Assembly: GCF_009914755.1 (NCBI RefSeq)
Contig: NC_060927.1
DNA: 64,000 bases
Origin: the human T2T-CHM13v2.0 reference genome, Homo sapiens
Direction: 5' to 3' (one strand)
Below are positions 45,298-64,000 of this stretch, piece by piece. The notes beneath the pieces are model-generated. The model worked only from the letters and a program-made list of their open reading frames with translations, was not told where the DNA came from and did no database searches. Positions within the stretch are counted from its first letter, which is position 1; every line of letters begins with the position of its first letter. The translations under genes were made by a program, and so were the position numbers.

Positions 45298-58020
<12,723 letters not shown>

Positions 58021-58555: not shown

Positions 58556-59029
58556 TAAATAGTGCCAGGCCCCATCTATTTATTTTGAGTGGAGAATGCC
58601 AGCACTGTAGTCTCACAGTTTTAGATCACTCAGAGATAAAGGTGTATCAAGGTCTGGGACACTAGATGGCCTCAGGGAGTTACATGATCTGTCTGCTTTC
58701 TCAAGGTCAGAGGGCCACTGGGGGACATCGTGGGGCCACATGGGGGGGTCACTCAGGGTCAGTGGGCACTCAGTAGGATCTTTGGTCTCCCAAGGCCAGG
58801 AGATTCCTGGATCACTCTAGGGCCACTTTGAGTTACCCAGGTGATCCCACAGTCCTTCTTAATGGCTTCCATAGACAGTAATTAGCAGGTGGCATACTTA
58901 TTGGTGGCAAAGCACATCATGTGCCCAAGCAGCTCAGCTGCCTGCTGCTCCAGGGCCTGCAGGGTGGCTGCCTTCTTGCCCAGTGCCTGTGCATTCTGTG
59001 TCAGGCGGCACTCCAACCCTGGGGTCAGG

Positions 59030-59275
59030 TCATCTGAGCCAGGCTCTGACCCCTGGCTCTAACCTCTGATCCTGGTCCCAGTCTCTATCACAACCCTGAC
59101 CCTGACCCAGCCCTAACCTTAAATAAACCCTGAACCTAATCAACACTTGATCCCTGGTCTAAACCTTGACCCTAGCCCTGATCCCTACATGAGTCAAGAT
59201 CTGATCTGGACCCAGCCTTAACCCTTCCACAACATCCCTATTCTGGCCCTGACCTTTCCATCTGACCCTAAGCCG
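59030..59275. repeat. Degenerate (TRACCC)n telomere-like hexamer tract
   Basis: Recurrent tgaccc/taaccc/tagccc/tgatcc units at 6-7 nt spacing. Confidence 0.65.
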
Positions 59276-60540
59276 TTCCCTGTGCCTGCCCTATTGCAGG
59301 CCAGCCATGCACCATGCAGGCAGCTGAAGCTGCTTTATGCCTTCTTCAGGAGCTCCTGGGCCTCAGCTCAAGCCTGCTGCACCCATTCTTTTGCATCCTG
59401 CACAGTGGCTACCAGGCCATATGTGTCCTCCTGCAGCTCGGCCACAGCCAAAGGGGCCACCTACAACTCCTAGGGCAGGGCTGGACCTGAATCCCCACCC
59501 CACCCAGAATATATTGCCTCAAATATATTACTGCCTAAGGTTCCTGGAGAAAAGGAGAATTTAGAACTGAGATCCCGCCTCAGTCCAGTATAGCCCAGCC
59601 CCAGCCCAAACCCCACTTTCCACTGTTCCAGAGGGGTCCCTGAGACCCCAGTGCCCACTCTTCCCCATTTCATCTTGCCCAGGCCCTCAGCCCTGCCTAC
59701 GACTCATGCTGCCCATTCTTCTGCCTCCTGGGCCTGCTGCTGACTCAGGACAAAACATGCCCTGAGCACCTTAGCTACACTGGACAGACGCCCTGGGACT
59801 GGGGTCACCTCAACTGCCAGTGCCATCTGGGCCAGGCGCCCTACTACCTGGGGCAAAGGTTAGGGGGTCACAGAGAGGACACAGCACAGTAGCAACTAGG
59901 CTGAGTGTTATCACGGTCAAGGTACTTGGTAGCACTGTGGTATCATAGTGAGTCAAGGATCTCAGGGAGAATGGAAATCACAGCAGTCATTGAACAAGGG
60001 ATGTAAAGGAGCTGAGGGTACAAGTAGGGTATCACCTCCTGTACAGTGCCCTCCAGGCCTTCAAGTGCCAGCTTCACTTCCTGTAGCCCTTGCTCTGCGG
60101 CCCCTGCATGAGTTCCATTCCCCCCTCAGCCAGCACCCCCTGAACATCCAGTGCTTGGTGCTGGGCCCAGGTTGTACCCTCCTTGAAGAACACAGGTGTT
60201 CAGTTAGGCATCCCTTTTCTGGCCACCCTCTGACTTCCACCTCCAGCCTCCTGGCCCTTCACCTGGTTCACTCTGCCTGATGGAGGATGCCTTCAGCTTT
60301 GGGCAGCTTCTGGCCCATGGCATCCGGTACAGGGAGAGCACCCTGGATCTGACCCAGCAGAAGAGCAATGCCTACTGCCCCCACCTTGGGGAAGGGGCAC
60401 TGACAGCCAGCTCCACACTTGTGGTGTCCACACCTTTGTCTGTGGGGAAGAGGGTAGGGATCTTAGGCCTGAACCCTGAACTCTGAGCCAACAAACCCTG
60501 ACCCTAGCCTCTCACTGATCCTGCCTTAGACACAACTATC

Positions 60541-61689
<1,149 letters not shown>

Positions 61690-62511
61690 TCATTCTGGAA
61701 GGAGTATCATGATAGTGTCCTGCATACCCTATTAACCCTGCCCTTGGCTGTGAACAGACATGCAACAAGCAGATATGTACCCATGAGGAAGCGCTGGATG
61801 ATCTGCACGGCTGCTTGCATGTGGGTCATGGCAGTCATGCCCCAAGGTCCCCTTTCCCAATACCATGTCTCCTGTGCCTGGATTCCTGTGGAGCTTGCTA
61901 TGGCCTGGATTTGCTGCAGCTGGTGGGCGTGGGTCAGATGTGGAATATGTTGCCTACAACACCATGTCCAAGCCATGGTTTCCTGTGACTCCCCCATGGC
62001 TCCCACCCACAGTCCCCCTGGCTGTGTACCTGTTGTTGATGCTGCTCCAAGGCTGTGACTCTATGTCCAGGCTATGGGAGGAGTTGTGGAAGGCAACAAG
62101 AGCCCACTGAACAGTGGGCAGGGTCCCAGGTTGGAGGGAGCAGCCTGTGCCTGCTACAGTACCCAATCTAGGACCTGCAGGTGTCCACCCTGGCCCCTAA
62201 CACCCCCACCAGGCATCCCCTAGCATAGGGTGGCCACCTCTTGGGCCACAGCTTCCAGCTGCAGTGGGAGCAGAGCCAGGAGTTGGTCTCAGAAGGTGAA
62301 GCAGGTGGGACAGGAGGTGCAGTGTGGGAAGGCACCTCTGGAGCCATGAGCACATGCCTGGCACCTCAGCCCTAAGATGCCCTCTCTGAAGAAGCAGGTG
62401 CCCATGTGTGAATCACAGCTGGGCAAGATGGAGCCCTGTGGGTCACAGGCACAGGCTGCAGAGGAGAGATAGGGTCAGGGTAGAGAGCAGATGACACTAG
62501 CTCTAGCCTTA

Positions 62512-63710
<1,199 letters not shown>

Positions 63711-64000
63711 ACTGAAGGATGAGAATGGCCCTGTGTAGGTGTGAGGGTGCACACCAACCCTTGCCTAAGCCACTGCTCAGAACTGCCATGGGCACTGGCA
63801 TTTACCCTGGACAGAGAGGCCATACTGCATGGCAGTATTTGGGCAGGAAAACAGCACAGGGTTCCAGGGGCTCTACAGCCCTGTCAGGGGTCAACCAGAG
63901 TCAAGGGCTGGCAGGCAGGGTGAGGAAAGAGCCACCTGATGTGTCCTCTCTATAGGCATCCCTCGCCTAGCCTTGCTGTTTCCCTTCAGCTGTTTTCACA

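What the first reader, a model, noticed from the sequence alone, without database searches (positions are those of the whole stretch)
61781..62127. The fossil laminin gene keeps an intron that LAMB2 lacks
Seen: LAMB2 exon 27 is a single 349-nt exon. In the fossil the equivalent is split by a 110-nt intron (donor CAG|GTACAC at 62029; CTGAC branch point and CCACCAG acceptor at 61920). The downstream part, LQQIQAIASSTGIQAQ...QIIQRFLM-G (139 nt, phase 0 to 1), aligns with [16 protein letters not shown]...QSVKDFLN, the last 145 nt of exon 27. As I recall, LAMB1 has 204+145-nt exons here. Inference: the paralog split off before LAMB2 lost this intron, so it is not a recent duplicate of LAMB2.
Basis: partly seen in the sequence, partly recalled or inferred. 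Interest (0 to 1): 0.75.

Follow-up and report, generated by a model that had tools for sequence, protein, structure and literature searches.

The report
Old intron kept in laminin pseudogene
A dead laminin gene just upstream of human LAMB2 still carries a small intron that LAMB2 has lost, an ordinary ancestral trait showing the dead gene is an ancient relative of LAMB2 and not a recent copy of it.

Summary
On the minus strand, 62127-62030 and 61919-61781 are the remains of one ancestral coding block. They are separated by a 110-nt GT...AG intron (62029-61920).

Intact "laminin beta-2-like" proteins of other mammals run straight across this gap. The match is 82% identity upstream and 65% downstream (E 6e-13).

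LAMB1 (204+145 nt), LAMB4 (204+145) and LAMB3 (198+145) all have a phase-0 intron at this spot, 34 codons after the last knob cysteine. LAMB2 has a single 349-nt exon there, exactly 204+145. So the intron is ancestral, and LAMB2 lost it precisely.

The fossil is the 3' part of the unprocessed pseudogene LAMB2P1/LAMB2L. In my trees it belongs to a lamb2l clade that runs from sharks to mammals and groups with LAMB4, not LAMB2 (AU test p 1.7e-59).

A deletion joins the exon-24-like piece directly to them.

This is a sound but ordinary result: a known pseudogene keeping an ancestral intron.

The parts
62142..62474 (-). Exon-24-like piece of the fossil: the last LE (EGF-like) repeat and the start of the coiled coil. 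It carries three in-frame stops.
   Evidence: tblastn with LAMB2 aa 1136-1218, E 1.2e-8. With the Rhinolophus LAMB2-like protein P0140 from aa 1208; homology ends at ...HLQVLDWVL*QAQA, 62142.
62128..62141 (-). Deletion junction. About 185 codons of the orthologous protein are missing (P0140 aa ~1319-1503), together with the introns between them. In LAMB2 terms this is the rest of exon 24, exons 25-26 and the start of exon 27.
   Evidence: P0140 aa 1305-1500 finds nothing in 84 kb except its first 14 residues at 62183-62142. The homology to the upstream half of the split block starts at 62127.
62030..62127 (-). Surviving 3' 98 nt of the upstream half ('27a'). It reads GTLPTVQWALVAFHNSSHSLDI, then a 1-nt frameshift, then VTALEQHQQQ.
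   Evidence: P0140 aa 1504-1525 at 62127-62062, 82% identity. P0140 aa 1527-1536 at 62059-62030 in another frame.
61920..62029 (-). Retained phase-0 intron, 110 nt: GTACAC...CTGAC...CCACCAG.
   Evidence: Sequence read directly. Ortholog residues 1536 and 1537 flank it exactly. No coding similarity to 419 laminin proteins. Same alignment column as the LAMB1 and LAMB4 introns.
61781..61919 (-). Downstream half ('27b'), 139 nt, open, phase 0 to 1, followed by GTACAT.
   Evidence: tblastn with P0140 aa 1537-1582, 65% identity, E 5.9e-13. With P0125 aa 1486-1531, 63%, E 3.1e-11. blastx hits 8 mammalian LAMB2-like proteins at E 2e-15 to 4e-10.
60263..60439 (-). Exon-28-like piece. Its acceptor is ...ccccacag, and its first two bases AC complete the codon G|AC begun at 61781. 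It has two frame changes and one stop.
   Evidence: tblastn with P0140 aa 1602-1644 at 60396-60265, and P0125 aa 1544-1558 at 60418-60374. Sequence and frames. Borders are approximate.
60033..60184 (-). Exon-29-like pieces of the fossil.
   Evidence: tblastn with P0140 aa 1645-1666 (73%) and aa 1672-1693 (68%).
59653..59850 (-). Exon-30-like piece, with one stop.
   Evidence: tblastn with P0140 aa 1692-1758, 58% identity.
59311..59469 (-). Exon-31-like piece, with three stops.
   Evidence: tblastn with P0140 aa 1751-1803, 62% identity, E 7.9e-10.
58882..59019 (-). Last exon of the fossil. It ends ...KYATC followed by the stop codon TAA.
   Evidence: tblastn with P0140 aa 1803-1846, 73% identity, E 3.8e-11. 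Sequence.
46776..47124 (-). LAMB2 exon 27, for comparison: a single 349-nt exon, exactly 204 + 145 nt.
   Evidence: Gene table. Sequence.

Best explanation
The stretch is part of the 3' end of the unprocessed pseudogene LAMB2P1 (formerly LAMB2L). This is the dead human copy of the vertebrate gene lamb2l. It lies head-to-tail upstream of LAMB2 on the minus strand.

The 110 nt at 62029-61920 are an ancestral phase-0 spliceosomal intron. It splits the beta-knob/coiled-coil coding block 34 codons after the last knob cysteine. LAMB1, LAMB3, LAMB4 and lamb2l all inherited it. LAMB2 alone lost it, by a precise excision that left a 349-nt exon (204 + 145).

What is shown:
- the coordinates, splice dinucleotides, phases and exon lengths in the five human loci;
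- the homology of both flanks to intact orthologous proteins;
- the placement of the fossil's lineage outside LAMB2.

What is inferred:
- that the intron was really spliced in the living gene, because the orthologs are gene predictions;
- that the loss in LAMB2 was a single event after the LAMB1/LAMB2 split;
- the way it was lost; a spliced-cDNA-mediated loss is the usual model, and I did not test it.
For: 1. Fossil extent. The fossil is collinear with LAMB2 exon by exon from window position 83296 down to 62226. With ortholog queries it continues down to 58885.

2. Living orthologs. Its LN-domain exon hits 29 proteins at E <= 1e-3 among 57 candidates. The named full-length ones are 'laminin subunit beta-2-like' of Echinops, Phyllostomus, Eptesicus, Molossus, Rhinolophus and Dama, at 78-84% identity.

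3. The gap. P0140 residues 1527-1536 end at 62030 and residues 1537-1582 start at 61919. The protein is continuous where the DNA has 110 nt that begin GT and end AG.

4. Human paralogs.
- LAMB1: 204 + 145 nt...ATG|GTAACT and ...TTTAG|GTC.
- LAMB4: 204 nt, CAG|GTAAAT, plus 145 nt. The 145-nt exon is the only one of 13 open AG...GT candidates that ends F-L-x.
- LAMB3: 198 + 145 nt, CAG ATG|gtaagt and ...caacag|ATT.
- LAMB2: 349 nt undivided.

5. Alignment. A MAFFT alignment of 18 rows puts the LAMB1, LAMB4 and fossil introns after the same column, which is LAMB2's 204-nt point.

6. Length difference. Shark and coelacanth lamb2l align without gaps to LAMB2 across this block, 68 + 48 residues. The 139 nt (against 145) and the shortened knob are therefore changes within the mammalian lineage.

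7. Trees. Mammalian LAMB2-like proteins nest in species order inside a lamb2l clade with SH-aLRT support 100. That clade joins LAMB4 (100), while LAMB2 joins LAMB1 (99). A PMSF tree gives the same grouping. Forcing LAMB2 + lamb2l together costs 113.8 log-likelihood units, p-AU 1.7e-59.
Against: - The orthologous proteins are computational gene models, one of them flagged LOW QUALITY. I saw neither their DNA nor any transcripts, so splicing at this junction rests on inference.
- The fossil's donor GTACAC is a poor match to the consensus. That is expected after decay but is not proof of past use.
- The direct fossil-to-LAMB2 similarity of the 139-nt piece is only 10 of 46 residues, so the homology is transitive, through the orthologs.
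- Three of the nine LAMB2-like proteins I asked for (P0127, P0142, P0145) lacked my anchor motif and were left out of the alignment.
- The trees are quick searches on 30-32 rows. They show flagged compositional heterogeneity and long branches. LAMB4 is represented only by unnamed or fused models that I assigned by similarity to human LAMB4 exons.
- The group used in the AU test was named after the first tree had been seen.
- I could not examine intron positions in any non-human genome.
Confidence: 0.9

Rival explanations
1. The 110 nt are not an intron. They are decayed coding sequence, or an insertion that entered the pseudogene after it died. On this view the living gene had an undivided exon like LAMB2.
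For: The donor GTACAC is weak. The fossil is full of other lesions: stops, frameshifts and a large deletion.
Against: The 110 nt start GT and end AG exactly between two codons that are adjacent in six orthologous proteins. The position and phase equal those of the LAMB1, LAMB4 and LAMB3 introns. blastx of the 110 nt against 419 laminin proteins gives nothing better than E 0.086, on the opposite strand. Only two codons are unaccounted for (139 against 145 nt), and they are missing in all mammalian orthologs too.
Confidence: 0.03
2. LAMB2 never had this intron. Instead, the intron was gained in parallel at the same site in the other beta-chain genes, including lamb2l.
For: None from my calls. 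Parallel intron gain at preferred sites is a known possibility in general (established knowledge).
Against: It needs at least three gains at the same codon boundary and phase: in LAMB1, in LAMB3 and in the LAMB4/lamb2l stem. A single loss in LAMB2 explains the same data, given the tree in which LAMB1 is sister to LAMB2. LAMB2's exon equals 204 + 145 to the base.
Confidence: 0.03
3. My own first alternative: 62127-62030 is the tail of the exon-24-like piece, the 110 nt correspond to LAMB2 intron 24 (96 nt), and the 139-nt piece is exon 25, which also ends ...NFLG in phase 1.
For: The stretch lies only about 100 nt after the exon-24-like match. LAMB2 exon 25 ends in phase 1 with a similar F-L motif. 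A weak LAEGG match at 60166-60089 looked like the 'real' exon 27.
Against: Orthologous proteins place 62127-62030 at residues 1504-1536 and 61919-61782 at residues 1537-1582, directly before the DEGAD... block that aligns with LAMB2's exon 28. The 60166-60089 match belongs to a later exon, P0140 aa 1645-1666. The ortholog's exon 25-26 equivalents are absent from all 84 kb.
Confidence: 0.01
4. The fossil is a young segmental duplicate of LAMB2, as its name suggests, that diverged fast after it died.
For: It is adjacent to LAMB2 in the same orientation, and it is named 'LAMB2 pseudogene 1'.
Against: It shares only 35-50% residue identity with LAMB2 in conserved domains, against 78-84% with LAMB2-like proteins of other mammals. 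The clade reaches back to sharks. The AU test rejects a clade with LAMB2. The fossil also retains an intron that LAMB2 lacks.
Confidence: 0.01

Closest known systems
LAMB2P1 (formerly LAMB2L), the transcribed unprocessed pseudogene upstream of human LAMB2
   Same: Same locus, strand and gene. The RefSeq row at 76928-78470 covers the fossil's LN/LE exons, which I mapped at 78358-77177.
   Different: RefSeq annotates only about 1.5 kb. The recognisable fossil runs from at least 83296 to 58882, so its whole 3' part inside this window, including the intron, has no annotation row. I recall that Durkin et al. (1999) described LAMB2L as a non-processed pseudogene. I could not see that paper. My library searches found no paper that describes its exon structure.
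Vertebrate lamb2l (the 'laminin, beta 2-like' gene of zebrafish and other teleosts)
   Same: The mammalian LAMB2-like proteins, and hence the fossil, nest inside this clade in species order. In teleosts lamb2l lies in tandem with lamb2 (PMC9504374, passages read). In Spea, Bufo, Amia, Gouania and Phyllopteryx the contig listed for the lamb2l-clade protein has the same length as the one listed for LAMB2.
   Different: Non-mammalian lamb2l keeps the full knob and a 68 + 48-residue block, like LAMB1 and LAMB2. In the MAFFT alignment the mammalian branch shows a net 9-residue shortening of the knob half (a 14-residue gap and a 5-residue insertion) and 2 fewer residues in the downstream half. It has a long stem branch (0.61-0.91) and no PF23219 match. 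The human copy is dead.
LAMB1, LAMB4 and LAMB3 exon pairs at the beta-knob
   Same: A phase-0 intron 34 codons after the last knob cysteine. The downstream exon ends F-L-x plus one base.
   Different: Their downstream exon is 145 nt; the fossil's is 139 nt. Their introns measure 673 nt (LAMB1), about 4.0 kb (LAMB4) and 301 nt (LAMB3), against 110 nt in the fossil.
LAMB2 exon 27
   Same: Homologous coding block with the same start and end phases.
   Different: It has no intron. Its 349 nt equal 204 + 145 exactly.

Membership tests
Laminin beta-chain gene family | N-terminal LN domain followed by LE (laminin EGF-like) repeats | tested here: met
   Collinear tblastn matches to LAMB2 aa 133-312 (LN) and to many LE repeats, from 83296 down to 62226. 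The orthologs carry PF00055 and PF00053.
Laminin beta-chain gene family | Coiled-coil region interrupted by the cysteine-rich beta-knob, with a C-terminal cysteine | tested here: met
   Remnants at 62127-58882 match the ortholog's coiled coil and end ...KYATC followed by a stop. In the human copy most of the knob has been deleted.
Unprocessed (duplicated-gene type) pseudogene | Introns retained at the parental positions; not a retrocopy | tested here: met
   The exon-like pieces are spread over about 24 kb in the parental order. There is a GT-AG intron at 62029-61920.
Unprocessed (duplicated-gene type) pseudogene | Disabling lesions | tested here: met
   In-frame stops and frameshifts in most pieces, and a deletion of about 185 codons.
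lamb2l orthology group | Phylogenetic placement inside the clade, apart from LAMB1, LAMB2 and LAMB4 | tested here: met
   Clade support is 100 and 99. The human fossil itself was not a row in the trees. It is tied to the clade by 78-84% identity to the mammalian members and 58-82% in the 3' pieces.
lamb2l orthology group | Tandem position upstream of LAMB2 in the same orientation | tested here: met
   Human: the fossil is at 83296-58882 and LAMB2 at 57187-45186, both on the minus strand (and the gene table).
U2-type GT-AG spliceosomal intron | GT donor, AG acceptor, branch-point-like motif and a pyrimidine-rich tract | tested here: met
   GTACAC ... CTGAC with the branch A at -15 ... CCCACGCCCACCAG. 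The donor matches 6 of 9 consensus positions by my own count.
U2-type GT-AG spliceosomal intron | Actually removed from transcripts | not testable with these tools
   No transcript data were available. The inference comes from orthologous protein models that skip the interval.

The most novel reading that the evidence does not exclude
The gene named 'LAMB2-like' is not a LAMB2 duplicate at all. It is the whole-genome-duplication partner of LAMB4.

On this reading an ancient head-to-tail pair of beta-laminin genes existed before the vertebrate genome duplications. It survives as LAMB4-LAMB1 on chromosome 7 and as LAMB2L-LAMB2 on chromosome 3. Vertebrates would then ancestrally have had one more full-length beta chain than the four counted in humans. 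That chain is still encoded by apparently intact genes in sharks, fishes, frogs, reptiles and several mammalian orders (afrotherians, bats, ruminants), but it died in the human lineage.

The retained intron is one small trace of that history. LAMB2 is the only human beta-chain gene that lost the intron.
Probability: 0.7. Interest if true: 0.4.

Novelty: already known. Interest (0 to 1): 0.3.

Why it matters
The finding matters modestly.

- It confirms that the sequence between LAMB2 and the annotated 1.5-kb LAMB2P1 is the rest of one large dead gene. Conserved-looking or 'regulatory' blocks upstream of LAMB2 may therefore be exon relics. For example, the RefSeq silencer at 60320-60614 overlaps the exon-28-like piece.
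- It pins down a clean, base-exact intron loss in LAMB2, a disease gene (Pierson syndrome).
- It corrects a naming trap. 'LAMB2-like' suggests a recent copy, and one paper I read (PMC9504374, passages) attributes lamb2l to the teleost genome duplication. My hits and trees instead put the gene in sharks, coelacanth and tetrapods, next to LAMB4.
- Whether the surviving mammalian copies make a working laminin chain is an open, testable question.

Tried and rejected
1. LAMB2 protein as the only guide. It found the exon-24-like piece but nothing credible at 61781-62127. It also gave a misleading weak match (LAEGG, 60166-60089) that I first took for the real exon 27. Ortholog queries showed that match belongs to a later exon.

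2. The hypothesis that the 139-nt piece is exon 25 and the 110 nt are intron 24. Searches rejected it.

3. Own-genome searches with LAMB2 exon 27 and with the LAMB1 downstream exon. These did not find the fossil, LAMB3, or the downstream exon of LAMB4. I found those later by fetching the loci and scanning locally.

4. tblastn with LAMB2 aa 1400-1798 against 23 kb of the LAMB4 region (21.5 kb of it downstream of the knob exon). It found only the knob exon.

6. Literature searches. They found no paper in the held library that describes the exon structure of LAMB2P1/LAMB2L or its relation to LAMB4. The older key papers (Durkin et al. 1996 and 1999; Sztal et al. 2011) are recalled only and were not seen.

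7. No structure prediction, Rfam search or complex prediction was run, because none bears on this question.

Full report
**The observation**

On the minus strand the sequence reads ...CATCAACAACAG | GTACACAGCC ... CATCTGACCCACGCCCACCAG | CTGCAGCAAATC....
- The last exon base is 62030.
- The intervening stretch is 62029-61920, 110 nt.
- The next piece runs 61919-61781 (139 nt). It is open, and it is followed by GTACAT.

LAMB2 exon 27 is 46776-47124. It is 349 nt, phase 0 to 1 (built from the hub's gene table; sequence).

**What the surroundings are**

tblastn with LAMB2 against 57201-84000 covers the rest of the window plus 20 kb that I fetched from the same chromosome. It gives a collinear, exon-by-exon series of matches on the minus strand, from 83296 (LAMB2 residue 133) down to 62226 (residue 1218). 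Many pieces carry in-frame stops. This is one large unprocessed pseudogene. RefSeq's LAMB2P1 row (76928-78470) covers only a few of its exons.

The last LAMB2-detectable piece, 62474-62226, corresponds to LAMB2 exon 24. It lies only about 100 nt upstream of the finding. LAMB2 itself gave no credible match to its exon-27 residues in 61781-62127: the three HSPs there (E 0.59-9.8) matched unrelated parts of LAMB2.

**The decisive evidence: living orthologs**

The fossil's LN-domain exon (L007:4140-4358, minus strand) was searched in the protein database. Of 57 candidates, 29 proteins scored E <= 1e-3. The named full-length ones are 'laminin subunit beta-2-like' of tenrecs, bats and ruminants, at 78-84% identity.

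I then used two of them, Rhinolophus P0140 and Echinops P0125, as tblastn queries. The matches with P0140 were:

| Window coordinates | P0140 residues | Identity / notes |
|---|---|---|
| 62474 to about 62142 | 1208 to about 1318 | exon-24-like piece |
| 62127-62062 | 1504-1525 | 82% |
| 62059-62030 | 1527-1536 | after a 1-nt frameshift |
| 61919-61782 | 1537-1582 | 65%, E 5.9e-13 |

Five further exon-like pieces follow, down to ...KYATC followed by a stop codon at 58882.

Residues 1536 and 1537 are neighbours in the protein, but 110 nt (GT...AG) apart in the human DNA.

Two controls:
- blastx of the 110 nt against all 419 stored laminin proteins gave nothing better than E 0.086, on the opposite strand and at an unrelated place.
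- The 139-nt piece hit 8 mammalian LAMB2-like proteins at E 2e-15 to 4e-10.

Ortholog residues of about 1319-1503 have no counterpart anywhere in the 84 kb. A deletion with its junction at about 62128-62141 removed the rest of exon 24, the equivalents of exons 25 and 26, and the first part of the knob exon. Only the last 98 nt of the upstream half survive.

**Is it the same intron as in the paralogs?**

I read the human loci directly.

| Gene | Upstream exon | Downstream exon | Borders |
|---|---|---|---|
| LAMB1 | 204 nt | 145 nt | ...AAG ATG\|GTAACT; ...ATATTTAG\|GTC TCT |
| LAMB4 | 204 nt | 145 nt | CAG\|GTAAAT; ...ttccag\|...\|gtaatt |
| LAMB3 | 198 nt | 145 nt | ...ccacag\|CTC TGT ... CAG ATG\|gtaagt; ...caacag\|ATT |
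| LAMB2 | 349 nt, undivided | – | – |

- For LAMB4, the 145-nt exon was the only one of 13 open AG...GT candidates that ended in F-L-x.
- In all three genes, and in the LAMB2-like proteins, the boundary lies exactly 34 codons after the last cysteine of the beta-knob, in phase 0.
- A MAFFT alignment of 18 rows places the LAMB1, LAMB4 and fossil introns after the same column, which is the 204-nt point of LAMB2 exon 27. The rows were four human sequences, six mammalian LAMB2-like proteins and eight LAMB2 orthologs. Three more LAMB2-like models lacked my anchor motif and were left out.
- LAMB2's 349 nt equal 204 + 145 to the base, which is the signature of a precise intron loss.
- The fossil's 139 nt (against 145) reflect a two-codon deletion shared by all the mammalian LAMB2-like proteins examined. 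Shark and coelacanth lamb2l align without gaps to LAMB2 through the whole block.

**How old is the paralog?**

- A full HMMER search with a sheep LAMB2-like fragment gave representatives of all beta chains.
- One close representative (P0152) turned out to be a shark protein. Its relatives occur in chimaera, coelacanth, amphibians, squamates, turtles, gar and many teleosts.
- Several teleost members are named 'Laminin, beta 2-like' by UniProt.
- In five species the contig listed for the lamb2l-clade protein has the same length as the one listed for LAMB2.

Two trees agree (30 rows, PMSF model; 32 rows, LG+G4):
- The mammalian LAMB2-like proteins nest in species order within this lamb2l clade (support 99-100).
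- The lamb2l clade joins LAMB4-like sequences (99-100).
- LAMB2 forms its own fish-to-human clade, which joins LAMB1 (99).
- Forcing LAMB2 and lamb2l together is rejected (delta lnL 113.8, p-AU 1.7e-59).

The caveats are real:
- These were quick searches.
- Composition is heterogeneous.
- The mammalian stem branch is long.
- The LAMB4 rows are unnamed or fused models that I assigned by similarity to human LAMB4 exons.

The gene order fits the trees. On chromosome 7, LAMB4 lies 5' of LAMB1. On chromosome 3, the fossil lies 5' of LAMB2. All four are on the minus strand. An old tandem pair that was later duplicated as a block explains both the trees and the gene order.

**Verdict on the interpretation**

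The intron is an ancestral character that every human beta-chain locus keeps except LAMB2. The trees say it separated much earlier, before LAMB1 and LAMB2 diverged. The intron alone cannot date anything, because I could not see LAMB2 gene structures of other vertebrates.

**What is known**

- The pseudogene is annotated as LAMB2P1.
- From memory, it was described in 1999 as a non-processed LAMB2-like pseudogene.
- Also from memory, the LAMB2/LAMB1 exon comparison dates from 1996.
- I saw neither paper.

Six library searches found no description of the fossil's 3' exons, of this intron, or of a lamb2l-LAMB4 relationship.

The passages I read in PMC9504374 report two tandem pairs in teleosts, lamb2l-lamb2 and lamb4-lamb1a. 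They ascribe lamb2l to the teleost genome duplication. My data do not support that.

PMC5785718 (passage read) counts four human and six zebrafish beta genes.

Supplements were not consulted.

**Scores**

The finding is real and correctly read, but it is an expected plesiomorphy in a known pseudogene. Interest is 0.3.

The boldest reading still allowed is that 'LAMB2-like' is in fact the lost partner of LAMB4 and an additional ancestral vertebrate beta chain that survives in several mammalian orders. I put it at about 0.7 probability. If true it would be of moderate interest to matrix biologists.

Noticed in passing
window 62128-62141 (minus strand): A deletion in the human fossil joins the exon-24-like piece directly to the last 98 nt of the knob exon. 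About 185 codons of the orthologous protein, and the introns between them, are missing from the whole 84 kb examined.
   Followed up: yes
window 58882-64000, continuing to about 83296 outside the window (L006, L007): RefSeq's LAMB2P1 row covers only 76928-78470. The recognisable fossil spans at least 24 kb and ends about 1.7 kb upstream of the LAMB2 transcript start.
   Followed up: yes
proteins P0125, P0130, P0134, P0135, P0140, P0144: Apparently intact full-length LAMB2-like gene models exist in afrotherians, bats and ruminants. None from primates or rodents appeared in this word-limited search. The mammalian branch has a long stem, a shortened beta-knob with fewer cysteines, and no PF23219 match. 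Whether these genes still work is open.
   Followed up: partly
G000:C7 109.25-109.43 Mb (L002, L003, L010, L011) compared with the window: LAMB4 lies 5' of LAMB1 on chromosome 7, in the same head-to-tail, same-strand order as the fossil and LAMB2 on chromosome 3. In the trees, lamb2l groups with LAMB4, and LAMB2 groups with LAMB1.
   Followed up: partly
proteins P0308 (pigeon, 2980 aa) and P0303 (Polypterus, 2855 aa): Both are gene-model fusions of two neighbouring beta-laminin genes. P0308 is LAMB4-like plus LAMB1. P0303 is lamb2l-like plus LAMB2-like. This fits the tandem arrangement in those species.
   Followed up: partly
window 60263-60439: The exon-28-like relic of the fossil overlaps the RefSeq 'silencer' element at 60320-60614. 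Some functional-element calls upstream of LAMB2 may sit on dead exons.
   Followed up: no
G000:C1 about 208.869 Mb (L013; LAMB3): The LAMB3 exon before the shared intron is 198 nt, not 204 nt. Its intron is 301 nt, and its downstream exon is again exactly 145 nt.
   Followed up: yes
PMC9504374, discussion section: The paper lists lamb2 and lamb2l among the extra laminin genes that teleosts gained from the third genome duplication. The lamb2l clade found here includes sharks, coelacanth, amphibians, reptiles and mammals.
   Followed up: partly
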